Assembly (NCBI GenBank): GCA_963847445.1
Contig: CAWJZV010000034.1
Coordinates: 32,001-96,000 of the forward strand
Source of the DNA: an uncultured delta proteobacterium
GTDB taxonomy: Bacteria; Desulfobacterota; Binatia; UBA9968
Direction of reading: 5' to 3'
DNA: 64,000 nucleotides
Shown here: positions 9,633-64,000 of the stretch, one piece after another
Layout of the letters: every line of letters begins with the position of its first letter
How positions within the stretch are numbered: position 1 is the stretch's first letter
Notes under the pieces: generated by a model
The model's input: only the letters and a program-made list of their open reading frames with translations
Told to the model about the DNA's origin: nothing
The model's database searches: none
Position numbers and translations under genes: made by a program

Positions 9633-9649
9633 TTGGCATTTACCTTGCT
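9633..9649 (+). promoter_or_regulatory. Sigma-54 (-24/-12) promoter of the EPS locus
   Basis: TTGGCATTTACCTTGCT versus consensus YTGGCAC-N5-TTGCW, 33 bp upstream of the NusG-paralog ATG. An AT-rich tract and an inverted pair TGTCAGTAA (9474-9482) / TTACTGACA (9537-9545) lie upstream. Confidence 0.75.
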
Positions 9650-9682
9650 CAAGTCAACTTCAACAATTGAATCCACATCACG

Positions 9683-10180
9683 ATGCAAGCTTGGTACGTT
9701 ATTTATACAAAAGCGCAGAAGGAAGAGTTTGCGCAATTCCATTTGAAGTTAAAAAACCTCGAATCGGTTTTTCCTAGACTATTGTTACCGGTATTTTCGC
9801 GCAGGCAAAAGAGAGTTGTTCCGCTGTTCCCCAACTATCTTTTTGTTCGTATGGATTTTGCGAAAGAATATGACTTTGTGCGTTGGTCGCCCGGTGTAAA
9901 ATGTTTCGTTTGTTTTAAGGACACGCCCAATCCTGTGGAAGACGGTGTAGTGGAACATCTTTTAAGTCGGGCGGATCCAAACGGGATCATCGCCGCGCGA
10001 CCTAACCTAAGAAAAGGCCAAGAGGTGAGACTTTGCGGTAGTTCACTGGCTGGGCTTGATGGAATTATTAGAAATCCTCCTGACGCAAAAGGGCGGGTTA
10101 CATTGCTCTTGAGCCTCTTCAAGCGCGATATCGAAGCGGAGGCGCGTTTAGAGCATATCGAGAGTAGTTGGCTGATTTAG
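9683..10180 (+). CDS. NusG paralog transcription antiterminator (RfaH/UpxY/LoaP-like)
   Basis: NGN domain WYVIYTK...PLFPNYLFVR...SPGV; KOW-like GQEVRL..G.LAGL.GII; first gene of the polysaccharide locus. Confidence 0.88.
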   Translation: MQAWYVIYTKAQKEEFAQFHLKLKNLESVFPRLLLPVFSRRQKRVVPLFPNYLFVRMDFAKEYDFVRWSPGVKCFVCFKDTPNPVEDGVVEHLLSRADPNGIIAARPNLRKGQEVRLCGSSLAGLDGIIRNPPDAKGRVTLLLSLFKRDIEAEARLEHIESSWLI

Positions 10181-10217
10181 GGCTTACTAGGTAAGCAGAC
10201 CCGATTGCATTTTGTTC

Positions 10218-10263
10218 TCCGAAGCACATGCTTCGGAAGTTGATATTTTTTTGGTTTTTTTTT
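10218..10263 (+). terminator. Hairpin plus T-tracts between the antiterminator gene and wza
   Basis: TCCGAAGCA-CA-TGCTTCGGA is a perfect 9-bp inverted repeat, followed after 8 nt by T7-GG-T9. Confidence 0.4.
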
Positions 10264-10320
10264 AGTGTGCAAAGCCAAGTGGCCTTGAGGGGCGGAGCTA
10301 TAACATTAAAATAAGGAAGG

Positions 10321-11112
10321 ATGGCTCCATTGATTATGCGGTTACTAAACAAATCGTCTCTGGCGGGGAAGCGTGCAACGGTTCCCTTTCGAAAAGTTTT
10401 GGCCGTGGCAACGCTTCTGATCTCGCAAACATTCTCTTTGTCGGGTTGCGGGGCTCCAACCAACGTCCAGCCGTTAACGCCCGCAGATATTCCAGTATTG
10501 CACGGTGCGGGAAATTTTCCCCATGAAAAGTACGTAATCGTGCCCGACGATACAATCCAGATTCGTTACACTTATCATCCTGAAATGAGCCAGGAAGTGG
10601 TTGTTCAACCGGACGGTAAAATTACCGCGACCCTTGTGGGACCAATCATCGTCACGGGGATGACGACGGCAAGGCTCGAAGAATTGCTTGTAGAAAAAAC
10701 ATCGGACCAACTCCGGAGACCAGAGGTGGTAGTCGGCATTACTAAATTTGCCGAAAGAAATGTTTATATCGGAGGAGAGGTCGGCAAACCGGGGCTGGTT
10801 CGCTATCGACAGGGACTGACCCCACTTCAGGCGGTCATCGCCGCGGGTGGTTTCCTTGAATCGGCGAGCACCGATAATGTGGTGTTGACACGCACGGGAG
10901 ATTCCCTTAATGAGTCCATCAGCCGCAGATTGAATCTTAGGGAAACAGTCGCCGACGGCATCAAGGAGCCACTCTTTCTTGCCCCGCACGATGTTGTTTA
11001 CGTACCCAGGACTTCGATCGCGGAAGCAAATCTATGGGTGAAACAACACATCACAGAGTTATTCCCTTTTTTGAAAGGGTCCGCCGGTGCGAGCTATCGA
11101 CTGGGACAATAA
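10321..11112 (+). CDS. wza: Polysaccharide export lipoprotein (OPX/Wza family)
   Basis: Lipobox LSGC; Poly_export motif YVIVPDD.I.I...VQPDGKIT; SLBB VYIGGEV..PG; L.PHDVVYVP. Confidence 0.88.
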   Translation: MAPLIMRLLNKSSLAGKRATVPFRKVLAVATLLISQTFSLSGCGAPTNVQPLTPADIPVLHGAGNFPHEKYVIVPDDTIQIRYTYHPEMSQEVVVQPDGKITATLVGPIIVTGMTTARLEELLVEKTSDQLRRPEVVVGITKFAERNVYIGGEVGKPGLVRYRQGLTPLQAVIAAGGFLESASTDNVVLTRTGDSLNESISRRLNLRETVADGIKEPLFLAPHDVVYVPRTSIAEANLWVKQHITELFPFLKGSAGASYRLGQ

Positions 11113-11171: not shown

Positions 11172-12437
11172 ATGTATAAATCCTACTTTGGTTTTGACGA
11201 AAAGCCGTTCAATGTCACCCCTGACCCACGGTTTTTCTATACCAATCCCGGGTACCAGGAGGCCTACGCAAACCTACTTTACGGCGTTCGTGAACGTAAA
11301 GGCTTTTTGCTGTTGACCGGCGAAGTGGGCACGGGAAAGACTACCATCCTGCAAAGATTGATGGAGGAACTGGAGTCTACGGTTCGCTTCGTCTTCTTTT
11401 ACAACACCAACTTGTCTTTCGAAGAGCTCTTGACCTTCATTTGCCAAGAGCTTGGGTTGCCGGTTAAGGAAGGCGGCCGACTTGAAAAAATCGGCGCCCT
11501 TAATGAATTTCTGCTAAATCAATTAAGGAACGGATCGACGACGGTTTTATTCATTGACGAGGCGCAGAATCTCAAAGCGGAGGTCTTTGAGAATCTACGC
11601 TTACTCTCGAATCTCGAAACGCCCAGGGAGAAGCTTTTGCAGATTGTCCTGGTCGGCCAACCCGAGCTTGAAGCAAAACTCGATCGAACCGACTTGCGAC
11701 AGCTGAAACAGCGAATCTTCTCTCAATCGCGGCTTGGCTCATTGAGCGAGGAAGAGGTGGCGTCCTTTATCGATTATCGACTCAAGGCAGTTGGTTGTCG
11801 TCGAAATGACCTTTTCCCGCGCGATGCGGTCAGGGAGATTGCGCTGTATTCAAAGGGGATCCCGCGCCTCATCAACATCATCTGCGATAACGCATTGCTC
11901 ATAGCCTATGCCGCGTCCGAAACGAAAGTGACTGCCGACATCATAAAAGAGGTCGCTCGTGACATGCGATTGGATACGGGAGTTAAGGTGGGTTCCAGGG
12001 CTCAAGCAGCGAATCTCCAAATCCCGTCTAAAAAAATCAACGAACTCAGTAATCATCCCGCGACCCTTCGGCGCGAATCGCCGGACCCAGCAAGGCCTCT
12101 GACCGCGGCGCCGGAAACGCAGGATGCCACAGTTTCACTGGCAAAAGAGGCGCCGGCACAGGCGAAATCAGAAACCGAAGATATCTCGCAAGCCTTTCTG
12201 GATTTGCTGACTAGCGCACTGATCGAGGCCATGGGGCCGATGGCCCCGCGGGTCATTCGGGATCAACTTACTACCCTTGGTACTTCTTCTGCGACTTTGC
12301 CGAAGGGATCGATCAAAAGGCTTGTCGAGTCAGTTAGCGCGGAAATTCTTGATGATGTGCTACGAGCAGGTTTTCAAAAAAAAATCTCCACCTTGGTGGG
12401 CACCCTAAACGGGAACGGTAGGAATGCTAACGCCTGA
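11172..12437 (+). CDS. ExeA/GspA-like AAA ATPase with an extra C-terminal helical domain
   Basis: MYKSYFGFDEKPFNVTPDPRF, Walker A GEVGTGKTT, Walker B FIDEAQNL, LVGQPEL and GIPRLINIICD. Confidence 0.9.
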   Translation: MYKSYFGFDEKPFNVTPDPRFFYTNPGYQEAYANLLYGVRERKGFLLLTGEVGTGKTTILQRLMEELESTVRFVFFYNTNLSFEELLTFICQELGLPVKEGGRLEKIGALNEFLLNQLRNGSTTVLFIDEAQNLKAEVFENLRLLSNLETPREKLLQIVLVGQPELEAKLDRTDLRQLKQRIFSQSRLGSLSEEEVASFIDYRLKAVGCRRNDLFPRDAVREIALYSKGIPRLINIICDNALLIAYAASETKVTADIIKEVARDMRLDTGVKVGSRAQAANLQIPSKKINELSNHPATLRRESPDPARPLTAAPETQDATVSLAKEAPAQAKSETEDISQAFLDLLTSALIEAMGPMAPRVIRDQLTTLGTSSATLPKGSIKRLVESVSAEILDDVLRAGFQKKISTLVGTLNGNGRNANA

Positions 12438-12472: not shown

Positions 12473-13189
12473 ATGAATCTAATCGGAACGGTCAGGCGTA
12501 ACCTTGTTGTTTTGATTGCGATCCTTGGGCTTATCATCCCAGGCATCATATACCATTTTTTGGGTCGTATCCTGCGCGAACGATTCGAACAACAGGCGTC
12601 GGTTGTCGCGATTAACTTGGCTGATTCTGCGGCGGGTTATGTCGTTAGCAGAGATGTTTTGCAGCTGCGCACTTTAGTGGCGAAGTACGGCCGTCTCGAT
12701 GGAGTCGCATATGCCCTTATTCAAGACCGTGAAGGAAATGTGCTAGCGAACAGTCTGGGAGTTATGCCACCGGGACTCCACGAAGACTTTCCCTCCGGTC
12801 AGCAGCGGGAAGTCATCCGACGAACGCTGACCCTACAAGAGAAAATCGTCTACGAGTCTCGGGGGCCGATTCTCGAGGGGCAATTGGGAAGCGTACGTCT
12901 AGGAATCTGGGCGGATACGGTCCAAAGCGGGATTTACCAAGGGTTTCTGCTTTTGCTGGGTCCTATCGCATTAGTTCTCATCGCCGCGGCAGCCGTCGCT
13001 GTCCTCATGGCAGGACGATTAATTAGACGCCTTCGCCGGTTGATGGAAATTGCCGGAAGGATGAGCACGGGAGACCTCGATACGCCGGTTAGAGCGGAAT
13101 CACAGGACGAGTTCGGAGAATTGACCCATTCTCTCGAGCGCATGAGGGCGAGCTTGAAGGCCGCGATGATGCGTCTCGATCAGAATTGA
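12473..13189 (+). CDS. Two-TM sensor-like protein ending in a HAMP domain, with no output domain
   Basis: Two hydrophobic helices flank a periplasmic Cache-like region. The HAMP motif RL...A.RMSTGDLDTPV...DEFGEL..SLERMR is followed by a stop. Confidence 0.8.
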   Translation: MNLIGTVRRNLVVLIAILGLIIPGIIYHFLGRILRERFEQQASVVAINLADSAAGYVVSRDVLQLRTLVAKYGRLDGVAYALIQDREGNVLANSLGVMPPGLHEDFPSGQQREVIRRTLTLQEKIVYESRGPILEGQLGSVRLGIWADTVQSGIYQGFLLLLGPIALVLIAAAAVAVLMAGRLIRRLRRLMEIAGRMSTGDLDTPVRAESQDEFGELTHSLERMRASLKAAMMRLDQN

Positions 13190-13365: not shown

Positions 13366-14873
13366 ATGGCCCAAGAAATCACACCCGTTGGCTCTTTCTA
13401 TCCAACCTATCTCCCTCCCGCCCAGAGGCTGCCGGGATAGGCGAGATCACGAAACAGGTTTGCTTCGTGGCGTTTAAATGGAACCGTGTAATCGTCGGCG
13501 TTTTTCTTGTTTTCACCATCGCAGCCGCAATTGCCATGTGGCTGAAACCACCGGTTAGAACGGCGACCGCGGAGATCTTGATTAAGGTGGATCGAGCGCC
13601 GATGCAGATTTCAGGTCTGGCAGGAAGAGCTGATAAGAGCCAGGTTGTCCAAATCATGAACTCGGAAGTACAGTTGATTGAAAGCCGGCAAGTCTTGGAA
13701 GCCGTCGCTATCAAGCTTTTGTCCCGTCCGGGCGAGAAGATCGATAAGGACGAACTTGAAGATAAGATCAGTTCCCTTGCGGGCAGTGTATTTCCGGTTC
13801 CCCTACCGGATTCCAATGTCCTGCAGGTCACGTATTTGGCGAAGACCGGCGAGGAAGCCGCGAAGACTCTCGGCCTGATCATTGAAGAATACATAGAGGC
13901 GCAAGCTGCGATTCAAAGCGGTTCAAATAGACTGCTGAAATTCTACGAGCAGGAGAAACAGAGAGTCGAAACCGAACTCCGGCAGGCAGAAGACCAATTG
14001 AATCAATGGCAGGGGAAGAACCAAACCGTTTCAATCGTTCAAGAGATCACTACTCAGATAGATTTACTGGAGCATCGAACAAAAGAGCTGCAGCAAGCGG
14101 ACGCCTCGCTTCAAGGGACAAAAGCAAAAATGGCTATGGTGCGGAGCCAACTTAACGTACAACCGGAGCGCTTGTTGACGGGACAAGATCAGGTGAGTAA
14201 TCCGTTGGCTGTCAAACTGAAAGAACAACTCGTTACGGCTGAAGTTGCGCTTCAAGACCTGCTCGGGCGCTTTACCGAGAAGCACCGTACTGTTGTCGAG
14301 AAAAGGGAGCAGATCGCCCTGCTCAAAAAGGAATTGGCGGCGGTACAGGAAAACATCATAGGGCGGGAAACAACCGCCTTAAATCCGCTCAAAGAGAATC
14401 TCAAACAACAGTTCTCAGATGCTCAAGCCCATTTGAGTTCTCTAACGTCGCAGAAGGAAACTCTGCAAAAACAGGTCGACGAGGCCTCGAGCGTGCTTGC
14501 CGGTATGCGCGAAAAGAAGGTAAAGATCGATGAACTGTCCCGCCTGGTGGAACTCCACAAAGACGCTTTCATGCTTTATGGGAAGAAGTTGGAAGAAGGT
14601 CGGATTGCCACCGGCCTGGGCAAGGAGCAGTTAGCCAATGTTGCGCTCATCGGGCCGGCTCGCGCGACCACCGGCACGGATCTTACTAAACGACTTACCA
14701 TGATTTTTCTAGCTGCTTTCGTCGGTTTGGCGCTGGGAATGGCCCTTGCTTTCGGACTTGAGTTTATGAATAGTGCGATCCGCACGCGACAAGACGTTGA
14801 GTACTATCTCGGCCTACCCGTGTTGGCAACGGTTCCAGAGTTGTCTGCACGGCCATTGATGTTGAATGAGTAA
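13366..14873 (+). CDS. Polysaccharide co-polymerase / chain-length determinant (Wzc N-domain, GumC-like), probable frameshift near 13420
   Basis: TM, long coiled coil, TM, then IRT..DVE.YLGLPVLATVP. GGAGATCGCC-ATG at 13366 is out of frame with the 13467 ORF; the same RBS context precedes 14888. Confidence 0.85.
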
Positions 14874-14887: not shown

Positions 14888-15697
14888 ATGGGTAGAACAC
14901 ATGAAGCGTTAAAAAAAGCCGAGAGAGAAAAGAGCAATGGCACTGCTAAAGAGAACGGCAAAGCGACTCGCGGAGAAGACGGCGCTCAGTTTAACGAGAA
15001 AAACTTCTCGTCAAATGGTCATCCCGCGCCGACGAGCTATCTTCGAGATCCACAAGGATCTGTTTTGGAGTACGAAAAAATCGGCGCTTGGCTAACCAAT
15101 CCGGCGCTCCGGGGCAAGCGGCTTCAAACCGTCATGGTTGTGGCTCCCCGGTCAGGCACAGGCAATACCACTACCGCAGCTTTACTCGCCGAAACCCTTG
15201 CGAACGTCAAGAAAAGACGCGTGCTGATCATCGATAGTAATTTTCGCACGCCCGCGCTGAATATGGTTTTTCAGGTAAAAAACGATGGCGGGTTCATTGA
15301 GGTTGCATCCGATGACTTGTCGTTTGACGCGCATATTCAAGCCACCAACCGCCCCAATCTTTTTGTTTTAACCAGCGGGCAGATTTCGATCAGCCCGGCA
15401 GAAGTTTTCGAAGGAGATGCGGTCGATCGGCTCATGGCCAAGCTTAAGGAAAGGTTTGACTTCATTGTTTTCGACGCCGCCCCCGTGATGGAGTTCCCAG
15501 ATTCCTTCGCGCTCGCCTCCAAGGTCGATAGCGTCATCTTGGTGGCCCGATCCGAAAAGACTTCGATTGAGGATGCCCAAAGGGCCAAATTGAATATCGA
15601 ACAGGCCGGGGGACGAATCCTCGGCGTCGTCTTAAATGGCCAGAAAGATTATACGCCGTCTTTCCTGAAAAGGTTTTTCTTCCTGCAAACAGCCTAA
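14888..15697 (+). CDS. CpsD/CapB-family BY-kinase-like protein with degenerate Walker A
   Basis: RVLIIDSNFRTP, NLFVLTSG, FDFIVFDAAP and ILGVVLN motifs. The P-loop reads GTGNTT and there is no C-terminal Tyr cluster. Confidence 0.85.
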   Translation: MGRTHEALKKAEREKSNGTAKENGKATRGEDGAQFNEKNFSSNGHPAPTSYLRDPQGSVLEYEKIGAWLTNPALRGKRLQTVMVVAPRSGTGNTTTAALLAETLANVKKRRVLIIDSNFRTPALNMVFQVKNDGGFIEVASDDLSFDAHIQATNRPNLFVLTSGQISISPAEVFEGDAVDRLMAKLKERFDFIVFDAAPVMEFPDSFALASKVDSVILVARSEKTSIEDAQRAKLNIEQAGGRILGVVLNGQKDYTPSFLKRFFFLQTA

Positions 15698-24998: not shown

Positions 24999-25076
24999 CA
25001 GTGCTCGATGATTGCCGGCGCTTTACTCGCCTGTCGTCCAACCCAGTCAAAATTTTTTAGAGAAGGTAGTGAAACC

Positions 25077-31687: not shown

Positions 31688-31692
31688 TCCAT

Positions 31693-39024: not shown

Positions 39025-39068
39025 AGCTCGCGGCTTCGAATACTACGGCGTCGGTCGGGGCTGATACC

Positions 39069-47401: not shown

Positions 47402-47808
47402 ACCGCAGGCATTAACCCAGCGCGTTCAGGTGGCGAGACGGGATTAGGATTTCTGCGCCGCAGCCGTTCCGATCGCTCATATCCCTCTAACGATGTGGCA
47501 ACGCTCTCTGCGCGGCTCCCGCGCCACTGAGTGGTTAAAAAGTTTTCGTCAGCCGGCTAAATACTATTTGGCCGGCATTCTTAAATGTTGCTCCGAGCAG
47601 CGAGGAGAACGCACAGCCACTGCCAAGCGCGCGATTCGTTGGGATAGTTTTGCTCTCCTTTGCCCGTTCTACGAGGCTTGCTCCTCGTCGACGCGCTCTC
47701 GTGTGTTTTCCTCGGCACTGAATCAGCAGGCTTCGGCCCGCTGTGCAGTTCTGTCTTTCGAGTATTTCCACTGACTTCACCATTTCTATTTCTTATAGGG
47801 GCGATCGT

Positions 47809-50937: not shown

Positions 50938-51036
50938 ACTTTGTTCTGGTGCGAACCAGGATTCGCAGTTCATCAAACCTGACGCTATCCACAATAACTA
51001 TCGTGCAAATCAATGAAACATCCGAAGGAGGATTCT

Positions 51037-55253: not shown

Positions 55254-55303
55254 GCTTCGAGTTCCTGAACCGTAATTTGTTGAGCTCTTTTTCCTGGATG
55301 ATC

Positions 55304-58702: not shown

Positions 58703-60372
58703 TGAGAACTAATACTGATTCGGCGCCGCTCCCTCTCGTTGGAGGAATCTCGCAGACCGTTGCCCGCACATGGTTTGCCTGGGCCGGCCGATTTTTGTTG
58801 TGGTCGTTCGCTTTTGGTATCTCCTATACTCAATCGCCCCTTTATACCTCGAATCAAAATACCAAATTCATTCATGGCCTGGCAGACGCCGGGTTGGGTT
58901 TCCTGACCGAAGATTGGTTGGCCAAGACGACAGACGTACTTCCAGTTTTTAGCTATTTGGTTTATCTGACGTACAAGTACCTGCATGAATCCATGTTCTA
59001 CTTCTACAATATTCTAATCTTTGGTGTTTATCTCTACAGTGTGTCGGGCATCGTTTCGACCGTCTACAATATCAATAGCGACCGACTCAGACACCTTACA
59101 TTCCTGACCGTCATTACCGCGATACATTCCTATGCCTTCGACTCGCTCTCATTGAGGCTCTTGGGGTTCGAACTGGGACAATTCCTCCACTACGGAGTTG
59201 CCGAACAACACGCGATCGGACGGATCTTTCAGCCCAGTGTCTTTGGCGTCCTTATTGTTTTATCGATTTATGCTTTTCTCCGCCGAAAGACGGTTGCCGC
59301 CGTTTTTCTTCTAGCCTTCTCGGCGACCATTCATCCGGCTTATTTCCTGACTGCGGCGGTTTACACCTGCGCCTATATGTGGATCGTATATAGGGAGAAG
59401 AACAGCATAAAAAAATCTTTGGCTGTCGGATTCTTCGTTCTCATTTTGACTTTGCCCTACTTGGCGTATTTCTATGTTCAGTTTAGTCCGACGTCGCCAG
59501 AAATCTGGAGTAGGGCGCAAGATATTCTGGTCAATTTCCGGAGCCCGCATCACATGAATGCGGACGTCTGGTTGAACGCGTCTGCCTATGGGAAAGTCCT
59601 CCTCGTGACCACGGCTTTGTACCTGGTCAGAAAAACGCAGCTTCTGCCGTTCATGCTCTTGCCGTTTTTGGTCTTTTTACTTTCCATCGTCGCACAGTTG
59701 CTGACCGGCAATAACACGTTAGCGGCCGCTACTCCGTGGCGTATTTCCGTCTTCTTAGTTCCGCTCTCGGTCGGGATCATCGTTGCTCATTTGGTGTCTT
59801 ATGTATTTGAAAAATTTCGTGAGCCAATTTCTAAGAATCACAAAACCATCACCGTCTTAAGCTTCGCAGCGGTTTTGATGCTCGTACTCTATGGGGTGAT
59901 GACCCAGGTGAAACGCCACGTCAAGTACTACCGTGGCGACAGCATTCCGATGATGAACTTCGTGAGGGAAACGAAATCTTCGGGCGAAACTTATCTTGTA
60001 CCTGTCGAGTTGGAAGATTTTCGGTTGTACACGGGAGCTCCCACATTTATAACGTTCAAGTCGGGGGCGTTTAAAGATGCGGAATATTTAGAGTGGTATA
60101 AACGGCTTGTCGCCGCAAGCGAGTTCTATCTAGCTAAGGACGCCGGGGCCTGCAAGATGCTGAAAACGTTCGAGGACGATTACAAAATCACGCATGTCGT
60201 CGTACCGGGCCATGCGCCGGACAGGCCTTGCGAAAATGCCTACGAGCTATATAAGGATGACCATTATCGCGTCTACAGAATCGACACAAATCGCTCCGTT
60301 GCTCGATTATTAAAGAGGCCCCGACCTGACATTTTTGAGCTTCATGGGTGTAATGAATTTCATTCACCGTAA
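58702..60372 (+). CDS. Polytopic membrane protein, DUF6798-like
   Basis: About 12 TM; LYTSNQNT.F.HGL...G.GFL..DWL, FQPS.FG, R.PHH and PWR.S motifs, then a soluble tail FRLYTG.P....FK....EWY.R. TGATG overlap with the previous gene. Confidence 0.7.
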   Translation: MRTNTDSAPLPLVGGISQTVARTWFAWAGRFLLWSFAFGISYTQSPLYTSNQNTKFIHGLADAGLGFLTEDWLAKTTDVLPVFSYLVYLTYKYLHESMFYFYNILIFGVYLYSVSGIVSTVYNINSDRLRHLTFLTVITAIHSYAFDSLSLRLLGFELGQFLHYGVAEQHAIGRIFQPSVFGVLIVLSIYAFLRRKTVAAVFLLAFSATIHPAYFLTAAVYTCAYMWIVYREKNSIKKSLAVGFFVLILTLPYLAYFYVQFSPTSPEIWSRAQDILVNFRSPHHMNADVWLNASAYGKVLLVTTALYLVRKTQLLPFMLLPFLVFLLSIVAQLLTGNNTLAAATPWRISVFLVPLSVGIIVAHLVSYVFEKFREPISKNHKTITVLSFAAVLMLVLYGVMTQVKRHVKYYRGDSIPMMNFVRETKSSGETYLVPVELEDFRLYTGAPTFITFKSGAFKDAEYLEWYKRLVAASEFYLAKDAGACKMLKTFEDDYKITHVVVPGHAPDRPCENAYELYKDDHYRVYRIDTNRSVARLLKRPRPDIFELHGCNEFHSP

Positions 60373-60592: not shown

Positions 60593-60608
60593 TGGCATTG
60601 CCCTTGCA
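60593..60608 (+). promoter_or_regulatory. Candidate sigma-54 promoter
   Basis: TGGCATTGCCCTTGCA has exact GG-N10-GC spacing, 16 bp before ATG 60625. An IHF-like TCTCAATGGTTTA lies at 60565-60577. Confidence 0.55.
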
Positions 60609-60624
60609 CTGGGCGTTGGGAACT

Positions 60625-62064
60625 ATGAAATTCCCAATATTCATTGTCATGTTTGCTGTGGCCAATCTATTTTTGAGTTTACCTGCTTTGCGAAAGTACA
60701 AACCCCCGACCAAACCCGTAGTGATCGACGACGGGGCCTACACTAGCTCTTTTGTAAAGCTACATGCGAAGTGGACTAGCCCTAGTCCCGAATCGGGAAT
60801 CGTCAAATTTAGATATCAAATCCGCGAGGGGTCAACTTCAGGCCCTATCATAGTTGGCTGGCAGTCGGTTGGTCTGGCAACCGAAATCACCCATCTTGGG
60901 TTAAGTCTTTTCAACGGGAAGACCTATTATATTGGGGTGAAGGCGATAAATAGCGAAGGCAAGACGTCCGACGTGGGTTACTCGGACGGGATCACAGTAC
61001 AAAATAGTTCCGCACCGCCACCACCACCGCCACCACCACCGCCGCCGCCACCACCACCGCCGCCGGCGAGCGGGGTACTGGAAGGATTTGGCTCTCAAAC
61101 ATCGGGTGGTGCGGGGAAGCCTATTGTCTTTGTTAGCAATCTGAACGATTCCGGTCCGGGCTCTCTCCGGGCTGCGCTGTCTGGTGGAGATAGGACGATT
61201 CAATTCTTGGTGGGTGGTTTGATCCCGCTTGCCAGTACTCTGCGCGTTAATGGAGCAAATATCACGCTTGACGGTTGCAGTGCCCCTGCACCAGGAATTA
61301 CTCTTGTTGGTCGTCCGGTAGATATTCGCGGCAACTACGGTGCGCACGATGTTATCGTTCAGTGTATTCGTAGCCGAGATTCTATTGATGATGGTTTCAC
61401 TATTAGCGAAGGAGCTTTTAACATTGTCCTGGATCGGGTAAGCGTTGCTAATGCTGCTGACGGAGCTATCGACATTGGTAGTTGGAACGGAAAGCATACG
61501 CACGATATAACTGTCCAGCGTTCGTTAATGACTCAGCCACGTAAGATCATGTTGGTGAAATATTTTGATGTTAAACGGGTTAGTTTACATCACAATTTAT
61601 TTGCTGATTCGACTGATCGGAGCCCGCGCATTGCCTATAACCAGAGCGGCGGGTTGCCAGCGAATGAAATTACCGTCGACTTGCGCAACAACGTGATCGC
61701 CAATTGGAGGGGAGGAATCGGCACGGATGCATCCTGCGGCGCTAAAGCCAATATAGTAGGAAATTACTTTTCCAATTCTGGTGCATCGGTGACCGATCAG
61801 AAGCAGGGAATCGTCGTGTCCAGTGCATCCGAAACTTGCCTCCAAGGTTTTGCATACGTGGAGGGCAACGAGAGTGCAGATGTCCCGGATATAGACAACA
61901 CGCCTTATATTCGCGTGCCCAAAGAAACCATCCCGTTTGCCGCACCGCCGATCACAGAGCAGAACGCATGTGGCGCTGCGCAAATCGTTCTAGCCACGGC
62001 TGGCCATCCTATTCGCGACGACATTGATCAAGCTGCGGTCGGCAGAGTGAGAATCAATTGCTAA
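60625..62064 (+). CDS. Exported FN3-like domain + Pro17 linker + pectate lyase-like (PL1-type) domain
   Basis: N-terminal hydrophobic leader; W....ESGI...Y...GKTYY.GVKAIN..G; GFGSQTSGG, NLNDSGPGSLR, DGAID, HHN and RSPR motifs. Confidence 0.82.
   Translation: MKFPIFIVMFAVANLFLSLPALRKYKPPTKPVVIDDGAYTSSFVKLHAKWTSPSPESGIVKFRYQIREGSTSGPIIVGWQSVGLATEITHLGLSLFNGKTYYIGVKAINSEGKTSDVGYSDGITVQNSSAPPPPPPPPPPPPPPPPPASGVLEGFGSQTSGGAGKPIVFVSNLNDSGPGSLRAALSGGDRTIQFLVGGLIPLASTLRVNGANITLDGCSAPAPGITLVGRPVDIRGNYGAHDVIVQCIRSRDSIDDGFTISEGAFNIVLDRVSVANAADGAIDIGSWNGKHTHDITVQRSLMTQPRKIMLVKYFDVKRVSLHHNLFADSTDRSPRIAYNQSGGLPANEITVDLRNNVIANWRGGIGTDASCGAKANIVGNYFSNSGASVTDQKQGIVVSSASETCLQGFAYVEGNESADVPDIDNTPYIRVPKETIPFAAPPITEQNACGAAQIVLATAGHPIRDDIDQAAVGRVRINC
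61015..61065 (+). repeat. CCA/CCG codon run encoding 17 consecutive prolines
   Basis: Read directly from the sequence. Confidence 0.9.
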
Positions 62065-62689
62065 ATGGCGTGGCATTTCATCTACACATTCCCGATATCG
62101 GCGAGACGGAACTAACGCATCAGTCGATCGCTTGGCGCGGCTTTGCTCCGGTGAACGCAGCGCCGGTTACATAAACGCGAGTGTCGTGACTCTTTTTCAG
62201 CACCCAAATGACTACGGCTGCTCAGCCTAGTTAGCGTCGGCAAACAAATTGCCATCGGCAACAAGATTTTGTTATTTGCCGCATTGAACACGGAATCATC
62301 ATGCCGTCGTTTCAGAAGGGTTTGACTGCGGCCTTAGCGGATCTGCGGGTAACAGGGGCGATCGGCGACCCTCGTTTATTGCGAGCTTGCCGGACGATAT
62401 TGGTTCCTCACGCTCCGGTAACAATCTTTACCTGACTGGCTCAGGGAAGTTGCAGTTGCGGATCTGCTAAATTAGCATTTTCTATTTCAGGATCGCGCGC
62501 CGTAATCCGGCGCTCTCGCATAATGGATTCAATATAAACTATCCCGTCGGGCTCATTATCATTATTAAAGTTGCAACGGGCTTTACCGACCCGTCGGCTC
62601 AATTGACTAAGTTTCGCTCTCTGATGTAAAAGTCGGGCAGCGTCGTGGCGTCCGCGAGAACGTCCGTCCCGGCCTGAAAGGGCACAATT

Positions 62690-64000
62690 ATGGCGATTCT
62701 AGAAACGGTGAATAAAGGCTTTAAGAGAATCGGCGCAGCGAGGCTCGGTCTTGCTGTGACAATTCTCTTCGCGCTCTATCCAGCTATTCCATGCCTGGCG
62801 CAACCGTATCAAGGATTTGGAGCGAATACGCCAGGTGGGTCGGGGCAGCCAATTTACCATGTGACAAACCTCAACGATTCCGGACCTGGAAGCCTGCGTG
62901 ACGCCGTATCTCAGGGCGATCGGACCGTCGTGTTCGATGTGGCCGGGGAGATTGTGCTTTCAAGTGAGATCTACGTGAAAGGCGCTTTCATCACCATTGA
63001 TGGCTTTAGCGCACCCTCGCCCATAACCCTGGTTAACGATGGCCTGAGAATCGTCGGGAATATCGGCGCGCATGACATCATCGTCCGGGGCATACGGGTG
63101 CGGAATGCTATAGGGGATAGCATCACGATCCGTGACGGGGCGTATAACGTTCTCATCGACCATATCTCCTCCCAGGGGGCGACCGATGGAGCCATCGACA
63201 TCACCAGGGGCGCGCATGACGTGACTGTCCAGTGGAGTATCCTCGCTGAGAACGGGCCGGAGCATAACTTCTTGGCATTGGTCGAGTTTCAAGCCCTGCG
63301 TGTCACCTTTCATCACAACCTGTTTGTGAAAGGGCAGAGTCGAAACCCGCAGTCCGGCTGGGATACTACTTTAGCCACAACCGCGCCCGAGATTGTCACT
63401 GATATCCGCAACAACCTGATTTGGGATTTCTCTGCTTACGGGACCGTGGCTACTAAGAAGACGAAAGCTAATGTAGTGAACAACTTTTACTATTCCTCGC
63501 TTAATCCGAAAGCTAAAAGAGCACTCTATGTGACTGATGGTAGCCAGGTCTATGCCGCAGGCAACTACAGTCATAACGGTGCGAACGTTGATGGGGAGGG
63601 AAACCAGCAGGCTCCTTTCCCTGCAGTTGCGGTGGACATCACCGACGCCTGCACCGCTGCTCACCAGGTACTTGCCGAGGCGGGAGTAAGTCCGCGGGAT
63701 GTTGTCGATCAGCAGAATCTGTCGGCCGTGTCGCTACCGTCATGTAGCGCGCCTAACCCGACTATCGCGGTTAGCCCGAATGGGCTTGATTTTTCTGCCA
63801 CTATCGGGGCACCAAACCCATCCCCGAAGCCACTGACGATCACCGACTCGAGTAATGGCGTGTCTTGGAATGCGACTACCAGTGCGGCGTGGCTCGCAGT
63901 TTCCCCTATGGGCGGGACAACTCCATCGAACGTGACTGTCACCGCAAACTCGTTTGGTTTGCCGGTAGGCTCCCATCTAACGACGATTAGCATTATCGCT
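62690..64000 (+). CDS. Secreted pectate lyase-like (PL1-type) protein with a BACON/Ig-like domain, runs off the right edge (partial)
   Basis: Manual translation is open to 64000: leader, QGFGANTPGG, VTNLNDSGPGSLR, LIDH, DGAID, HHN and RNP, then IAVSP..L.F...W......WL.VSP..G.TP..VTV. Confidence 0.82.
   Translation, partial: MAILETVNKGFKRIGAARLGLAVTILFALYPAIPCLAQPYQGFGANTPGGSGQPIYHVTNLNDSGPGSLRDAVSQGDRTVVFDVAGEIVLSSEIYVKGAFITIDGFSAPSPITLVNDGLRIVGNIGAHDIIVRGIRVRNAIGDSITIRDGAYNVLIDHISSQGATDGAIDITRGAHDVTVQWSILAENGPEHNFLALVEFQALRVTFHHNLFVKGQSRNPQSGWDTTLATTAPEIVTDIRNNLIWDFSAYGTVATKKTKANVVNNFYYSSLNPKAKRALYVTDGSQVYAAGNYSHNGANVDGEGNQQAPFPAVAVDITDACTAAHQVLAEAGVSPRDVVDQQNLSAVSLPSCSAPNPTIAVSPNGLDFSATIGAPNPSPKPLTITDSSNGVSWNATTSAAWLAVSPMGGTTPSNVTVTANSFGLPVGSHLTTISIIA

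What the first reader, a model, noticed from the sequence alone, without database searches (positions are those of the whole stretch)
9633..64000. Very large sigma-54/antiterminator-led locus for a heavily sulfated, possibly glycosaminoglycan-like exopolysaccharide
Seen: one near-unidirectional >54 kb block with Wza, split Wzc, Wzy, a flippase and a priming transferase. It also holds 6 GT4 domains, 5 PAPS sulfotransferases, CysQ, 3 deacetylases, 3 sulfatase-fold proteins, AsnB, an ATP-grasp ligase, 2 methyltransferases, an SGNH hydrolase and 3 PL1-like lyases. Established: sulfotransferases use PAPS and are inhibited by PAP, which CysQ removes; lyases act on uronic-acid polymers. Characterised bacterial sulfated-EPS pathways are few (for example synechan in Synechocystis). 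Inference: the locus makes, edits and turns over a sulfated, uronate- and amino-sugar-containing glycan in a probably uncultured lineage. PAPS synthesis genes and an intact ugd are not in the window.
Basis: partly seen in the sequence, partly recalled or inferred. Interest (0 to 1): 0.8.

Follow-up and report, generated by a model that had tools for sequence, protein, structure and literature searches.

The report
Sulfated exopolysaccharide gene island in Binatia
An uncultured soil bacterium carries a gene island of about 77 kb that appears able to build, heavily sulfate, decorate and export a sugar polymer, a trait that is genetically documented in very few bacteria outside cyanobacteria.

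Summary

It is longer than the window. It runs about 22 kb further on the same strand. That stretch holds a sixth sulfotransferase, a carbamoyltransferase, a dedicated Sat-CysC PAPS synthase, a TauE-type permease and a sigma-54 activator, for about 77 kb in all.

The core is a Wzx/Wzy pathway of the XrtA/PEP-CTERM type, but the genome has no exosortase.

- All sulfotransferase paralogs of the 7.19-Mb genome lie in this locus. Apart from an unnamed entry, 3rnl, their nearest solved relatives are heparan-sulfate NDST and 3-OST enzymes.
- The three "sulfatase-fold" proteins are cytoplasmic and lack the formylglycine motif, carrying T-P-P-S-H instead. They are not ordinary sulfatases.
- The lyase-like proteins resemble VexL.
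- DUF6798, whose gene overlaps the end of a sulfotransferase gene, has a GT-C glycosyltransferase fold.

The island occurs in 3 of 31 genomes of the genus. It has the lowest GC of any 77-kb stretch in the genome and abuts a tRNA.

Verdict: a real, probably sulfated EPS locus and a new variant of a known kind. A GAG-like product remains speculative.

The parts
9634..9648 (+). sigma-54 type -24/-12 promoter (TGGCAT-N5-TTGC), 35 nt upstream of the first gene
   Evidence: One search found the site. The same 18-mer lies upstream of the G005 ortholog within otherwise unalignable DNA (this rests on G005, which is flagged unpublished). G004 has a consensus site 420 nt upstream of its ortholog. Genome-wide there are 98 matches in 7.19 Mb.
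9683..10180 (+). NusG-family specialised antiterminator (RfaH/UpxY/LoaP-like)
   Evidence: PF02357 at 60.6 bits. TIGR01955 RfaH scores 87.8 bits, below its cut-off of 144.5. No ops element in the leader.
10321..11112 (+). outer-membrane polysaccharide export lipoprotein (OPX, short Wza-like)
   Evidence: Poly_export plus SLBB domains. Best NCBIfam hit is TIGR03027 pepcterm_export, below cut-off. The N-terminus ends in LSGC.
11172..12437 (+). XrtA/PEP-CTERM-system-type AAA ATPase
   Evidence: AAA_22. TIGR03015 scores 284.1 bits against a cut-off of 324.5.
12473..13189 (+). membrane sCache+HAMP protein without an output domain
   Evidence: for the domains and for 2 TM segments. Conserved at full length in G004 and G005.
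13467..14873 (+). Wzz-type chain-length determinant (PCP)
   Evidence: PF02706. Best NCBIfam hit is TIGR03007, below cut-off.
14888..15697 (+). BY-type tyrosine autokinase (second half of the split Wzc)
   Evidence: TIGR01007 scores 127.6 bits, above its cut-off of 108.05.
15731..17179 (+). Wzy-type polymerase / O-antigen-ligase-like membrane protein
   Evidence: Wzy_C scores 41.4 bits, above its cut-off of 31.7. 8 hydrophobic segments.
17225..18136 (+). XrtA-system polysaccharide deacetylase (CE4 + DUF3473)
   Evidence: TIGR03006 scores 374.4 bits, above its cut-off of 276.2.
18123..18782 (+). PHP-family metal phosphoesterase. Its role is open: either a Tyr phosphatase for the BY-kinase or a pAp phosphatase.
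   Evidence: PHP plus PHP_C domains. CehA/McbA scores 75.1 bits against a cut-off of 80. Only weak PDB hits to PHP phosphoesterases. 92-98% identical in G005 and G004.
18804..19976 (+). ATP-grasp ligase
19980..21227 (+). cytoplasmic sulfatase-fold protein 1, without the formylglycine motif (T-T-T-C-V at that site)
   Evidence: PF00884. hhalign to the T-P-P-S-H family gives probability 100%. No signal sequence.
21231..23591 (+). double GT4 glycosyltransferase (786 aa)
   Evidence: Two GT4 stretches. Best NCBIfam hits are TIGR03088 and BshA-like, both below cut-off.
23604..24998 (+). cytoplasmic sulfatase-fold protein 2, of the T-P-P-S-H subfamily
   Evidence: PF00884 at 156.6 bits. Its T-P-P-S-H aligns with S-x-P-S-R of sulfatase 6pt6. 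Of 112 aligned rows, 106 have Thr, 6 Ser and 0 Cys at that site.
25008..25994 (+). SAM methyltransferase 1
26117..27112 (+). secreted right-handed beta-helix protein (NosD/CASH-like)
   Evidence: PF05048. N-terminal signal-like segment. No PDB sequence hit.
27176..28390 (+). GT4 glycosyltransferase
28387..29952 (+). MurJ/MOP-family flippase dedicated to the locus
   Evidence: TIGR01695 scores 256.4 bits, above its cut-off of 235.55. A second copy, 25% identical, lies on contig C24.
29949..30782 (+). CysQ 3'(2'),5'-bisphosphate nucleotidase (removes PAP)
   Evidence: TIGR01331 scores 310.6 bits, above its cut-off of 228.8.
30814..31653 (+). sulfotransferase ST1 (its C-terminus probably runs out of frame after about residue 239)
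   Evidence: PF00685. PDB hits: 3rnl at 1.1e-24, 3-OST-3A at 1.2e-18, NDST1 at 1.6e-18. See alignment A1.
31746..32645 (+). sulfotransferase ST2
   Evidence: PF00685. PDB hit 3rnl at 1e-45.
32630..33504 (+). sulfotransferase ST3, split by a frameshift near 33156
   Evidence: It is a single frame in G004 and G005. The run X6 contig has an extra G after 33156, whereas X1 and X7 agree with the window.
33517..34341 (+). DUF2334 deacetylase-fold protein a
34785..35795 (-). secreted VexL-like pectate-lyase-fold protein (the only minus-strand gene)
   Evidence: PF00544. Best PDB hit is VexL 6fi2 at 3.7e-14, with the viDH and RNP motifs aligned. Signal-like N-terminus. Three runs lack one letter at 34856.
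35790..37334 (+). extra pyruvate kinase paralog
   Evidence: TIGR01064 scores 396.7 bits, above its cut-off of 306.4. Two further paralogs lie elsewhere in the genome.
37427..38758 (+). membrane-anchored SGNH hydrolase/acyl-esterase
   Evidence: Absent from G005.
38791..38964 (+). remnant of a UDP-sugar 6-dehydrogenase (N-terminal 58 residues)
   Evidence: PF03721 at 41.7 bits. G005 has a near-full-length gene in the same slot (rests on G005).
39003..40259 (+). GT4 glycosyltransferase
40795..42717 (+). AsnB-type glutamine amidotransferase (XrtA-system type)
   Evidence: TIGR01536 passes. TIGR03108 scores 631.7 bits against a cut-off of 816.9.
42825..43850 (+). SAM methyltransferase 2
43866..45079 (+). 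GT4 glycosyltransferase, split in the window
   Evidence: It is a single frame in G005. Runs X6 and X7 lack one letter each at 44069 and 44250, which restores one frame.
45057..45851 (+). DUF2334 CE4-fold de-N-acetylase b (the start is taken at Met45 of the long ORF)
   Evidence: PF10096 at 149.4 bits. AF2 pLDDT 96.4. Top PDB matches are CE4, ArnD and PgaB-type folds. Of 25 long homologs, 7 are fused to GT4 and 2 to a MurJ-like flippase.
45920..46771 (+). sulfotransferase ST4
46955..47401 (+). small secreted Cys-rich protein of unknown function
   Evidence: No family hit. Signal-like N-terminus.
47743..49749 (+). priming polyprenyl-phosphate sugar-phosphate transferase fused to a Wzy_C/IctB-like membrane domain
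   Evidence: Bac_transf at 174.2 bits. TIGR03025, TIGR03013 and PEP_O_lig_1 hits. 12 hydrophobic segments.
49959..50894 (+). sulfatase-fold protein 3 (N-terminal half; T-A-P-S-H)
   Evidence: hhalign to A4 gives probability 95.8% and E 7.6e-9. Weak STM4013 hit.
51013..51849 (+). secreted repeat protein with a Cys-rich N-terminal region resembling that of 26117-27112; beta-helix fold inferred, not tested
   Evidence: No family hit. Its N-terminal CGG...C.CG motif and repeated G-N/D-G segments resemble those of 26117-27112 by eye. The tblastn tally shows a second in-locus hit for each of the two, but one search did not print where it lies. Absent from G005.
52194..53558 (+). Na+/H+ exchanger-family transporter
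54069..55253 (+). secreted DUF7453 / NxxGxxAF-repeat protein with no PEP-CTERM tail
55277..56548 (+). GT4 glycosyltransferase
56741..57478 (+). secreted HEAT-repeat protein
57809..58702 (+). sulfotransferase ST5 (the start is taken at Met8 of the long ORF)
   Evidence: PF00685. Orthologs begin at this Met.
58693..60372 (+). DUF6798, a GT-C-fold membrane glycosyltransferase whose gene overlaps ST5 by 10 nt
   Evidence: PF20604. AF2 pLDDT 93.2. Foldseek hits to AftA, DPY19, PglB, ALG9 and ArnT, probability 1.0, TMq 0.33-0.47.
60593..60607 (+). second sigma-54-like site, in front of the next lyase-like gene
   Evidence: Conserved in G004 at C6:981442.
60598..62064 (+). secreted VexL-like lyase-fold protein with an N-terminal domain and a 16-Pro linker
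   Evidence: PelZ hit below cut-off. VexL 6fi2 at 1.1e-13. Sequence shown.
62690..64000 (+). secreted lyase-fold + BACON protein that runs off the window; the locus continues
   Evidence: 55% identical to 34785-35795. The continuation is described.

Best explanation
This is a horizontally acquired island of about 77 kb (window 9634 to about 22 kb past the window end). It encodes a Wzx/Wzy-dependent pathway for a multiply sulfated, heavily decorated extracellular heteropolysaccharide.

**Shown by sequence**
- Complete assembly and export set: priming transferase, 7-8 GT4 domains, MurJ-type flippase, Wzy, Wzz plus BY-kinase, and an OPX lipoprotein.
- Complete sulfation set: six cytoplasmic PAPS-type sulfotransferases, a second and locus-specific Sat-CysC PAPS synthase, CysQ, and a TauE/TSUP permease.
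- Further modifiers: two methyltransferases, a NodU-like carbamoyltransferase, two AsnB amidotransferases, an ATP-grasp ligase, and three CE4-fold deacetylases.

**Inferred mechanism**
1. The repeat unit is built on undecaprenyl phosphate at the cytoplasmic face.
2. HexNAc residues added by GT4 enzymes are de-N-acetylated by the adjacent DUF2334 enzymes.
3. The unit is sulfated from PAPS, and also methylated, carbamoylated and amidated, before it is flipped.
4. It is polymerised by Wzy under BY-kinase control and exported through OPX.
5. In the periplasm, GT-C enzymes (DUF6798) add further residues.
6. Secreted VexL-like beta-helix proteins cut or trim an acidic, (amino)uronate-containing chain.
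7. Transcription starts at a sigma-54 promoter, probably driven by the response-regulator activator at the 3' end. The NusG-family first gene carries it through the long operon.
For: **Gene content.**

**Sulfation module**
- Sat-CysC passes NF004040 at 849 bits against a cut-off of 669.
- Full-length Sat-CysC is found only in the 3 of 31 genus genomes that carry the locus.
- Housekeeping cysD-cysN-cysC and a cysH-like gene lie elsewhere.
- All sulfotransferase paralogs are inside the locus and none outside.
- The sulfotransferases keep the invariant G-T loop, a Glu and the R-N-P motif. Behind the unnamed entry 3rnl, the best hit for both, they match heparan-sulfate NDST and 3-OST structures: E about 1e-18 for ST1, 5e-6 to 7e-4 for ST2.
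- They have no signal or TM segment.

**Deacetylases.** DUF2334_b has a CE4 fold. Its homologs are fused to GT4 in 7 of 25 long homologs and to a MurJ-like flippase in 2 of 25.

**GT-C.** DUF6798 has a GT-C fold.

**Lyase-like proteins.** They match VexL and carry signal-like N-termini. VexL is a Vi-antigen lyase that acts in cell-surface assembly (abstract of PMC6003464).

**Uronate supply.** There is a ugd remnant here and a full ugd in the same slot in G005.

**Regulation.** Sigma-54 sites were found.

**Conservation and acquisition**
- Synteny holds over about 74 kb in G004 at 88-98% aa identity for most genes, and in G005 at 51-92%.
- The island's GC is 53.3% against 57.45% for the genome. 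None of 435 other 77-kb windows is as low.
- A tRNA-Arg sits at the 3' edge.

**Literature.** PAPS genes plus sulfotransferases within one polysaccharide cluster is called a hallmark of sulfated polysaccharide synthesis (PMC11641403, passages read).
Against: - No product has been seen, and there are no expression data.
- At least eight genes of the locus are split in this assembly: ST3, GT4d, ST6, the second DUF6798, GlpD-like, GT4f, the second AsnB, and the lyase C-terminus.
- Contigs of two runs agree with the window at the ST3 frameshift, so some of these breaks may be real.
- This genome has lost both in-locus sugar dehydrogenases that relatives keep.
- No GT2 or other polyprenyl-phosphate sugar synthase that a GT-C enzyme would normally need was seen in the locus.
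- Most XrtA-type models score below their cut-offs.
- The genome is a MAG, 91.8% complete with 6.9% contamination.
Confidence: 0.72

Rival explanations
1. The product is not a free EPS. It is instead a sulfated cell-bound glycan: a capsule, an O-antigen-like chain, or a glycan transferred to proteins or lipids.
For: - There are two Wzy_C/O-antigen-ligase-like domains.
- There are two GT-C enzymes whose structural neighbours include the oligosaccharyltransferase PglB and ArnT.
- Several secreted repeat proteins are encoded in the locus.
Against: - An OPX protein together with PCP and a BY-kinase is the usual set for exported high-molecular-weight polymer.
- The XrtA-type core genes are EPS-associated by their NCBIfam names.
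- Nothing in the sequence tells capsule from slime.
Confidence: 0.2
2. The 77 kb is a composite of two or more polysaccharide or glycan pathways that merely sit side by side. One candidate split is an XrtA-type core EPS plus a second ST-GT-C-lyase module, so that sulfation would concern only one of them.
For: - A second sigma-54-like site lies before the lyase genes and is conserved in G004.
- The ST-DUF6798-lyase block is duplicated in tandem.
- Gene content in the second half varies between G000, G004 and G005.
- There are two Wzy_C domains.
Against: - The genome has a single priming transferase, a single flippase of this type, and a single OPX/PCP set.
- The sulfotransferases are spread over both halves: 30.8-33.5 kb, 45.9 kb, 57.8 kb, and beyond the window.
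- Nearly all genes lie on one strand.
Confidence: 0.3
3. In this particular genome the island is decaying and no longer makes the polymer, although relatives may.
For: - Many ORFs are split.
- ugd is reduced to a remnant, and the second dehydrogenase is missing.
- The ST3 frameshift is shared by contigs of runs X1 and X7.
Against: - Frameshifts also occur outside the island, in cysN and a Rieske gene. G004 has different ones. That pattern fits assembly indels.
- Near-identical contigs from other runs restore GT4d and the lyase C-terminus.
- A full-length ugd exists on contig C30.
Confidence: 0.15
4. The sulfotransferases act on small molecules or lipids (sulfolipids, signalling oligosaccharides) rather than on the polysaccharide.
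For: Bacterial sulfotransferases with known substrates mostly act on Nod factors and mycobacterial glycolipids. This is stated in PMC8205485 (passages read).
Against: - The six genes are interleaved with glycosyltransferases, the flippase and deacetylases.
- Related genes in other phyla also sit beside priming transferases, BY-kinases and GT4 genes. Eight loci have 3-4 sulfotransferase copies plus Bac_transf.
Confidence: 0.05

Closest known systems
Synechan xss cluster of Synechocystis sp. PCC 6803 (PMC8205485; passages read)
   Same: - A Wzx/Wzy-dependent locus with glycosyltransferases, Wzx, Wzy and PCP.
- Sulfotransferases inside the cluster, with a dedicated regulator.
- Sulfation is presumed to occur on the lipid-linked unit in the cytoplasm.
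   Different: - xss has 2 sulfotransferases and 8 GTs, and no OPX gene in its cluster. The passages read do not mention PAPS at all (0 occurrences). The product is neutral sugars plus sulfate.
- This locus has 6 sulfotransferases, its own Sat-CysC, CysQ and TauE, an OPX gene, CE4 deacetylases, AsnB, carbamoyl- and methyltransferases, lyase-like proteins, GT-C enzymes and sigma-54 control.
Sulfated capsule cluster of Vibrio sp. KMM 8419 (PMC11641403; passages read)
   Same: - Second copies of the PAPS-synthesis genes and several sulfotransferases sit inside a very large (95 kb) polysaccharide locus.
- The locus is patchy between strains, with signs of horizontal transfer.
   Different: - The Vibrio locus is ABC-transporter (kps) dependent, uses cysDNC rather than a Sat-CysC fusion, and has no Wzy.
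- Its product, a sulfated rhamnose-containing CPS, is structurally solved.
XrtA/PEP-CTERM exopolysaccharide loci (NCBIfam models TIGR03006, 03015, 03007, 03018, 03027, 03108, 03013, 02915)
   Same: - Same core gene set in similar order: export protein, ATPase, chain-length determinant, tyrosine kinase, O-ligase-like protein, DUF3473 deacetylase, AsnB amidotransferase, and a sigma-54 response regulator.
- TIGR03006 passes its cut-off.
   Different: - No exosortase was found by PF09721 or TIGR02602.
- No PEP-CTERM tail on the locus's secreted proteins.
- All other XrtA models score below their cut-offs.
- No paper in the library links PEP-CTERM, exopolysaccharide and sulfotransferase (0 hits).
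Animal heparan-sulfate NDST and 3-O-sulfotransferases (PDB 1nst, 8ccy, 1t8t, 3uan)
   Same: - Apart from one unnamed entry (3rnl), they are the nearest solved sulfotransferase relatives. E values are 1e-18 to 1e-15 for ST1 and 5e-6 to 7e-4 for ST2.
- Deacetylase genes sit next to two of the sulfotransferase genes (ST3-DUF2334a and DUF2334b-ST4).
   Different: - The proteins are separate and cytoplasmic, not Golgi fusions.
- NDST1 does not appear among the 49 listed fold matches of the deacetylase.
- No deacetylase-sulfotransferase fusion was seen among 25 long homologs.
- The acceptor, and whether sulfation is N- or O-, are unknown.
VexL, the Vi-antigen lyase of Burkholderiales Vi loci (PMC6003464; abstract read)
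   Same: - A pectate-lyase-fold protein encoded inside a biosynthetic polysaccharide locus.
- It is the best solved relative of two of the three lyase-like proteins here.
- It is exported.
   Different: - Sequence similarity is only about E 1e-13 to 1e-14.
- There are three paralogs here, two of them with extra domains (a poly-Pro linker, BACON).
- The pathway here is Wzy-dependent, not ABC-dependent.
- The substrate is unknown.
Putative sulfated GAG-like clusters of Pontiella sulfatireligans F21 (PMC7356697) and wps-1 of Actinoplanes missouriensis (PMC13390465); passages read
   Same: Heparan-sulfate-type sulfotransferase genes sit among GT4/GT2 genes in a polysaccharide cluster. The Pontiella EPS was measured as mostly N-sulfated.
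   Different: Those clusters hold 1-2 sulfotransferases, and the passages read do not mention PAPS (0 occurrences). They belong to different phyla. Neither has the XrtA-type core, the T-P-P-S-H proteins or the GT-C pairs.

Membership tests
Wzx/Wzy-dependent polysaccharide assembly | Polyprenyl-phosphate sugar-phosphate priming transferase | tested here: met
   Bac_transf scores 174.2 bits, above its cut-off of 27. It is the only one in the genome by tblastn.
Wzx/Wzy-dependent polysaccharide assembly | MOP-family flippase and Wzy polymerase | tested here: met
   MurJ TIGR01695 scores 256.4 bits, above 235.55. Wzy_C scores 41.4 bits, above 31.7.
Wzx/Wzy-dependent polysaccharide assembly | PCP with BY-kinase, and an OPX export protein | tested here: met
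   Wzz scores 27.1 bits, above 25.5. TIGR01007 scores 127.6 bits, above 108. Poly_export scores 62.5 bits, above 28.
XrtA/PEP-CTERM EPS system | Exosortase (XrtA/EpsH) in the genome | tested here: not met
   No match to PF09721 or TIGR02602 in the whole genome. Caveat: the genome is 91.8% complete.
XrtA/PEP-CTERM EPS system | PEP-CTERM cargo proteins | tested here: inconclusive
   The PF07589 search found none, but the control genomes did not ring either. No such tail is visible on the locus's secreted proteins.
XrtA/PEP-CTERM EPS system | System-specific accessory genes (deacetylase, ATPase, amidotransferase, regulator) | tested here: inconclusive
   TIGR03006 passes (374 > 276). TIGR03015 (284 < 324.5), TIGR03108 (632 < 817), TIGR03007, TIGR03027 and TIGR02915 (358 < 503) are among the top NCBIfam hits (best for most, second for the regulator) but score below their cut-offs.
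PAPS-dependent carbohydrate sulfotransferases (PF00685, heparan-sulfate type) | Family domain above threshold, with conserved PAPS-binding loops | tested here: met
   All 5 in-window genes score 52-73 bits against a cut-off of 22; ST3's second fragment, 33160-33504, scores 29.4. G46, T47, E67 and R136-N137-P138 are invariant in A1. The assignment of these residues to the 5'-PSB and 3'-PB loops and the catalytic base is recalled, not tested here.
PAPS-dependent carbohydrate sulfotransferases (PF00685, heparan-sulfate type) | Acceptor is a glycan; N- versus O-sulfation | not testable with these tools
   Only gene context is available.
Sulfated-polysaccharide gene cluster (PAPS synthesis plus sulfotransferases in one locus) | Dedicated PAPS synthase and PAP removal within the locus | tested here: met
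   Sat-CysC passes NF004040 (849 > 669). It is restricted to the 3 of 31 genus genomes that carry the locus. CysQ passes. The housekeeping cysDNC lies elsewhere.
Formylglycine (S1) sulfatases | C/S-x-P-x-R maturation motif | tested here: not met
   The three proteins carry T-P-P-S-H, T-A-P-S-H and T-T-T-C-V at the aligned position. Of 112 aligned family rows, 0 have Cys there and 0 have Arg at the fifth position.
Formylglycine (S1) sulfatases | Export to the periplasm or outside, where sulfated glycans are met | tested here: not met
   No N-terminal hydrophobic segment in any of the three, by a simple hydropathy scan.
Glycosaminoglycan (heparosan/chondroitin/hyaluronan-type) synthesis | A GT2- or GT45-type GAG synthase/polymerase | tested here: not met
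   Every glycosyltransferase domain found is GT4, plus two GT-C enzymes. No GT2 or GT45 family hit appeared in the Pfam scans of the locus ORFs. dbCAN was not run.
Glycosaminoglycan (heparosan/chondroitin/hyaluronan-type) synthesis | UDP-sugar 6-dehydrogenase supplying uronic acid | tested here: inconclusive
   Only a 58-residue remnant lies in the locus. A full-length copy lies on C30, and another in the same slot in G005 (rests on G005).
Glycosaminoglycan (heparosan/chondroitin/hyaluronan-type) synthesis | Polymer-level C5-epimerase | not tested
   The two NosD-like beta-helix proteins were not examined for this. There is no PDB sequence hit for 26117-27112.
PL1/VexL-like polysaccharide lyases | Right-handed beta-helix with the conserved xxDH and R-x-P segments | tested here: met
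   The alignment to VexL covers 213 residues and includes viDH and qRNP. The catalytic role of these residues is recalled. Activity is not testable here.
GT-C glycosyltransferases | GT-C membrane fold with an acidic residue in the first outer loop | tested here: met
   pLDDT 93.2. 9 of the top 10 Foldseek hits are GT-C enzymes at probability 1.0, the tenth at 0.98. D74 is invariant and D81 nearly so among 61 sequences. The loop's sidedness is inferred.

The most novel reading that the evidence does not exclude
The island encodes the first genetically defined bacterial route to a heparan/Vi-like polymer that is both N- and O-sulfated and contains (amino)uronate. The proposed route has three parts:
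- GT4 enzymes add HexNAc, the adjacent CE4-fold DUF2334 enzymes free the amine, and neighbouring heparan-sulfate-type sulfotransferases sulfate it. This would be a split bacterial counterpart of animal NDST.
- Sulfotransferase-GT-C gene pairs deliver pre-sulfated sugars from a lipid carrier to the polymer outside the cytoplasm.
- The cytoplasmic T-x-P-S-H 'sulfatase-fold' proteins are a new class of Thr-nucleophile group-transfer enzymes tied to PAPS metabolism.

Related sulfotransferase arrays in Chloroflexota, Acidobacteriota, Planctomycetota and others would then mean that sulfated matrix polymers are widespread in soil bacteria.
Probability: 0.12. Interest if true: 0.85.

Novelty: new variant of a known kind. 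Interest (0 to 1): 0.62.

Why it matters
**Background.** Sulfated polysaccharides are central to animal and algal matrices and are industrially valuable. Papers up to 2026 still describe them as essentially confined to cyanobacteria among bacteria (PMC8205485 and PMC13390465; passages read). Sulfated GAG-like polymers have been detected chemically in granular sludge and in Pontiella, without known enzymes (PMC7356697).

**What this locus offers.**
- A compact, conserved and testable gene set from a soil lineage without cultured members.
- Six heparan-sulfate-type sulfotransferases with their own PAPS supply, which are candidates for enzymatic sulfation of glycans.

**What the work also shows.**
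It often sits in polysaccharide loci.
- A Pfam domain of unknown function, DUF6798, is a GT-C glycosyltransferase.
- A large group annotated 'arylsulfatase A-like' cannot be formylglycine sulfatases.

Tried and rejected
- **Earlier findings.** The search of earlier findings was not open.
- **ops element.** A search for an RfaH ops element gave 4 one-mismatch matches against 3.26 expected, none in the leader. Rejected.
- **Rfam.** A scan of the window at gathering thresholds gave 0 matches.
- **PEP-CTERM domain.** The search was uninformative because the controls did not ring.
- **Solved structures.** The NosD-like protein gave no hit. DUF2334_b gave only a chance-level hit.
- **Deacetylase-sulfotransferase fusions.** A Rosetta-stone test found none among 25 long DUF2334 homologs. 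Three N-terminal-DUF2334 fusions showed no similarity to the sulfotransferase profile. Six more of that kind were not tested.
- **NDST1 as a fold match.** NDST1 did not appear among the 49 listed fold matches of DUF2334_b.
- **Binding of ST5 to DUF6798.** Complex prediction returned no verdict, with score 0.00.
- **Expression.** No RNA holder was listed for the stretch.
- **Insertion-site test.** In G004 the orthologs of this genome's flanking genes lie on another contig, 153 kb apart from each other, and in G014 on two different contigs. No empty site could be shown; only that the genomic context differs.
- **DUF6798 within the phylum.** 0 of 300 other genomes drawn held it, so the ST-GT-C pairing could not be tested in relatives.
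- **Agl7 lead.** I followed the lead that the Haloferax sulfation factor Agl7 might belong to the T-P-P-S-H family. Its annotation is only in a closed supplementary table. The lead was dropped as unverified.
- **X6 joint.** A joint in run X6 that skips 31532-38048 has only 23 letters on its shorter side. It was not used.

Full report
**1. Observation**

The coordinates are in the parts list.
- From 9683 to the window end, all but one of the real genes lie on the + strand. The exception is the lyase-like gene at 34785-35795.
- Upstream of 9.0 kb lies unrelated aromatic catabolism: LigB, RraA-like, Rieske/LigXa and an ADH. The left border is therefore near 9.1-9.6 kb.
- The clustering is not chance. 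tblastn with every locus protein against the whole 7.19-Mb genome finds all sulfotransferase paralogs inside the locus and none elsewhere.
- By the same test, the Wza, Wzz, BY-kinase, Wzy and priming-transferase genes are the only ones of their kind in the genome.

**2. The locus is longer than the window**

The window is contig C34:32001-96000. The next 22 kb, on the same strand, hold:
- a sixth sulfotransferase and a second DUF6798, both frameshifted and part of a tandem duplication of the ST-DUF6798-lyase block
- a GlpD-like dehydrogenase and another GT4
- two NAD-epimerases and a NodU-like carbamoyltransferase
- a second, fragmented AsnB and several membrane proteins
- a PUA-ATP-sulfurylase-APS-kinase fusion, a TauE/SafE-family permease, and a REC-sigma54-HTH response regulator

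The fusion passes the NCBIfam model for bifunctional sulfate adenylyltransferase/adenylylsulfate kinase at 849 bits against a cut-off of 669. A tRNA-Arg follows the regulator. The whole unit is C34:41633-118503, or 76.9 kb.

**3. The sulfation module is dedicated**
- The genome has a separate cysD-cysN-cysC cluster 245 kb away and a cysH-like gene.
- Among 31 genomes of the genus, the full-length Sat-CysC occurs only in G000, G004 and G005, which are the three that carry the island. Eighteen of the other 28 match only through the APS-kinase part, mostly of a frame of about 640 aa; ten have no match at the threshold used.
- CysQ passes its equivalog model.
- The sulfotransferases lack signal or TM segments. 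They keep the invariant G-T loop, a Glu and R-N-P.
- Their best solved relative is an unnamed sulfotransferase (3rnl), followed by heparan-sulfate NDST1 and 3-O-sulfotransferases at E about 1e-18 for ST1.
- PAPS genes together with sulfotransferases in one polysaccharide cluster has been called a hallmark of sulfated polysaccharide synthesis (PMC11641403; passages read).

**4. Core machinery**

The best NCBIfam hits of the export protein, ATPase, chain-length determinant, O-ligase-like protein, deacetylase and amidotransferase are all XrtA/PEP-CTERM-system models; for the kinase, priming transferase and regulator such a model ranks second. Only the DUF3473 deacetylase (TIGR03006) passes its cut-off. 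No exosortase was found with two models in this 91.8%-complete genome. I therefore describe the locus as working like an XrtA-type EPS locus, but I do not file it as a member.

**5. The 'sulfatases' are not sulfatases of the known kind**
- Protein 23604-24998 aligns its T-P-P-S-H with the S-x-P-S-R of a carrageenan sulfatase entry.
- Of the 120 listed hits, 115 plus the query were aligned; 5 hits shorter than 380 aa were dropped. Of those 116 rows, 112 have residues at the site: 106 Thr, 6 Ser and 0 Cys. At the Arg position there are 109 His and 0 Arg.
- The family reaches haloarchaea, judging by source names.
- The other two locus proteins belong to the same family.
- All three lack export signals.
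- In 80 metagenome loci of this family the neighbours include GT4-type genes (18 loci, with 9 more for the double GT4), AsnB (5), priming transferases (4), Sat-CysC (2, directly adjacent in L143) and sulfotransferases (2).
- Their chemistry is unknown. I infer a Thr-nucleophile group transfer in biosynthesis, not desulfation.

**6. Acidic and amino-sugar content**
- Two lyase-fold proteins match VexL best, at E 3.7e-14 and 1.1e-13, with the viDH and RNP segments aligned.
- All five beta-helix proteins have signal-like N-termini.
- A 58-residue ugd remnant lies at 38791-38964. In G005 a near-full-length dehydrogenase fills that slot, where G000 and G004 have an SGNH gene.
- G004 and G005 carry a second sugar dehydrogenase after TauE, which G000 lacks. 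G000 keeps a full ugd beside epimerases on C30.
- DUF2334_b folds as a CE4/NodB-type deacetylase (pLDDT 96.4). Its matches include ArnD and PgaB/IcaB, and it keeps the D-D and H-x-x-x-H positions.
- Of its 25 long homologs, 7 are fused to GT4 and 2 to a MurJ-like flippase. This mirrors the gene order here, GT4d-DUF2334b-ST4.
- This fits 'add HexNAc, remove acetyl, modify the amine'. N-sulfation itself is inference.
- No GT2- or GT45-type GAG synthase was seen.

**7. DUF6798**
- This 559-aa protein's gene overlaps ST5 by 10 nt, and it recurs after ST6.
- It gives a confident model (pLDDT 93.2).
- Its top structural matches are GT-C enzymes: AftA, DPY19, PglB, ALG9/12 and ArnT, at probability 1.0 and TMq 0.33-0.47.
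- D74 is invariant in 61 sequences.
- One homolog is fused to methyltransferase domains.
- I infer periplasmic transfer from a lipid-linked donor that a cytoplasmic enzyme has modified. No donor synthase was identified.

**8. Regulation**
- The 18-mer containing TGGCAT-N5-TTGC lies 35 nt before the first gene.
- The same 18-mer lies before the G005 ortholog, in DNA that otherwise does not align.
- G004 has a consensus site 420 nt upstream of its ortholog.
- Genome-wide the pattern occurs 98 times on both strands.
- A second site precedes the lyase gene at 60598 in both G000 and G004.
- The regulator is conserved in G005 at 69% identity. G004's contig ends nearby.

**9. Distribution**
- G004 carries a syntenic locus of about 74 kb at 88-98% aa identity for most genes. 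G005 carries one at 51-92%.
- Their record titles read 'uncultured delta proteobacterium' and 'Candidatus Binatia bacterium'.
- In the ST1 search of 24 other genus genomes, only those two showed gene arrays. G002 and G014 had weak isolated hits.
- The island's GC is 53.3% against 57.45% for the genome, lower than all 435 other 77-kb windows.
- In G004 it sits in a different genomic context.
- Of the 78 loci kept, only the two same-genus ones share the architecture. Eight loci, labelled Ktedonobacteria or Chloroflexia, have 3-4 copies beside a priming transferase. Three of the other 76 have Sat-CysC.
- Near-identical DNA occurs in runs from several studies, most of them labelled soil metagenome. 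Contigs of four runs from four studies were laid on it.

**10. Assembly quality**
- At least eight locus genes are split.
- Contigs of runs X6 and X7 lack one letter each at 44069 and 44250, which rejoins GT4d.
- Runs X4, X6 and X7 lack one letter at 34856, in the lyase C-terminus.
- X6 has an extra G after 33156, which rejoins ST3, but X1 and X7 agree with the window there.
- Frameshifts also occur outside the island.
- Most are therefore probably assembly indels. Some may be real.

**11. Verdict**

This is a real and unusually complete locus for a sulfated, multiply decorated polysaccharide.
- Shown: the gene content, the dedicated PAPS route, conservation across three genomes, and horizontal-transfer signatures.
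- Inferred: the order of steps, the acceptor sugars, N-sulfation, and the roles of the T-P-P-S-H, GT-C, PHP, pyruvate-kinase and GlpD-like proteins.
- Relative to the synechan, Vibrio, Pontiella and Actinoplanes clusters, it is a new variant of a known kind.
- No paper in the library links Binatia with sulfotransferases, or PEP-CTERM loci with sulfotransferases (0 hits each).
- Supplementary tables of the papers were closed and may hold relevant gene lists.

Noticed in passing
window 58693-60372, and the second copy at C34:97495-99042 (L004:1462-3042): Pfam DUF6798 is a GT-C-fold glycosyltransferase (pLDDT 93.2; top matches AftA, PglB, ArnT and ALG9). Its relatives are named from Chloroflexota, Cyanobacteria and Planctomycetota. 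None was found in 300 other genomes drawn from this phylum.
   Followed up: yes
window 23604-24998, 19980-21227 and 49959-50894; proteins P0001-P0120: A large family annotated 'arylsulfatase A-like' carries W-T-x-P-S-H in place of C/S-x-P-x-R. It lacks signal sequences in the three proteins here, and it extends to haloarchaea. Two metagenome loci (L143, L176) place it beside Sat-CysC.
   Followed up: partly
proteins P0242-P0306 (homologs of window 45057-45851): DUF2334 deacetylase domains occur fused to GT4 glycosyltransferases (7 of 25 long homologs) and to MurJ-like flippases (2 of 25).
   Followed up: partly
window 1-9000 and genus genomes G004, G014, G015, G019, G044: The flank encodes aromatic ring-cleavage genes (LigB, RraA-like, Rieske/LigXa). 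The five genus genomes searched hold 15-40 matches each to one Rieske oxygenase at E <= 1e-30. The window pair 5652-6536 / 6256-6831 looks like one frameshifted Rieske gene.
   Followed up: no
window 35790-37334 and L004:3513-5214: A third pyruvate kinase paralog and a GlpD-like FAD dehydrogenase sit inside the polysaccharide locus and are conserved in G004 and G005. Their role is unexplained.
   Followed up: no
window 12473-13189: A 238-aa membrane protein with only sCache and HAMP domains and no transmitter domain is conserved at full length in all three genomes. Two paralogs lie elsewhere in the genome (C46, C48).
   Followed up: no
window 40364-40793: The 109-aa ORF with no family hit lies in a stretch that a 14.9-kb contig of run X6 replaces with other sequence. 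It is probably not a gene.
   Followed up: partly
window 60598-62064: The VexL-like protein carries an N-terminal extra domain joined by a run of 16 prolines. The last gene of the window adds a BACON domain.
   Followed up: no
G000:C34:359789-362429: The housekeeping cysD-cysN-cysC cluster has cysN split over two frames, and cysC lies in a 173-aa frame. Relatives have frames of about 640 aa. This is probably an assembly indel in a CysNC fusion.
   Followed up: no
L024-L039 (loci labelled Ktedonobacteria/Chloroflexia), L030, L086/L087, L099: Other phyla carry arrays of 3-4 ST1-like sulfotransferase genes beside priming transferases and BY-kinases. One Acidobacteria locus (L030) combines Sat-CysC, CysQ, GT4, a sulfotransferase and a priming transferase.
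   Followed up: partly
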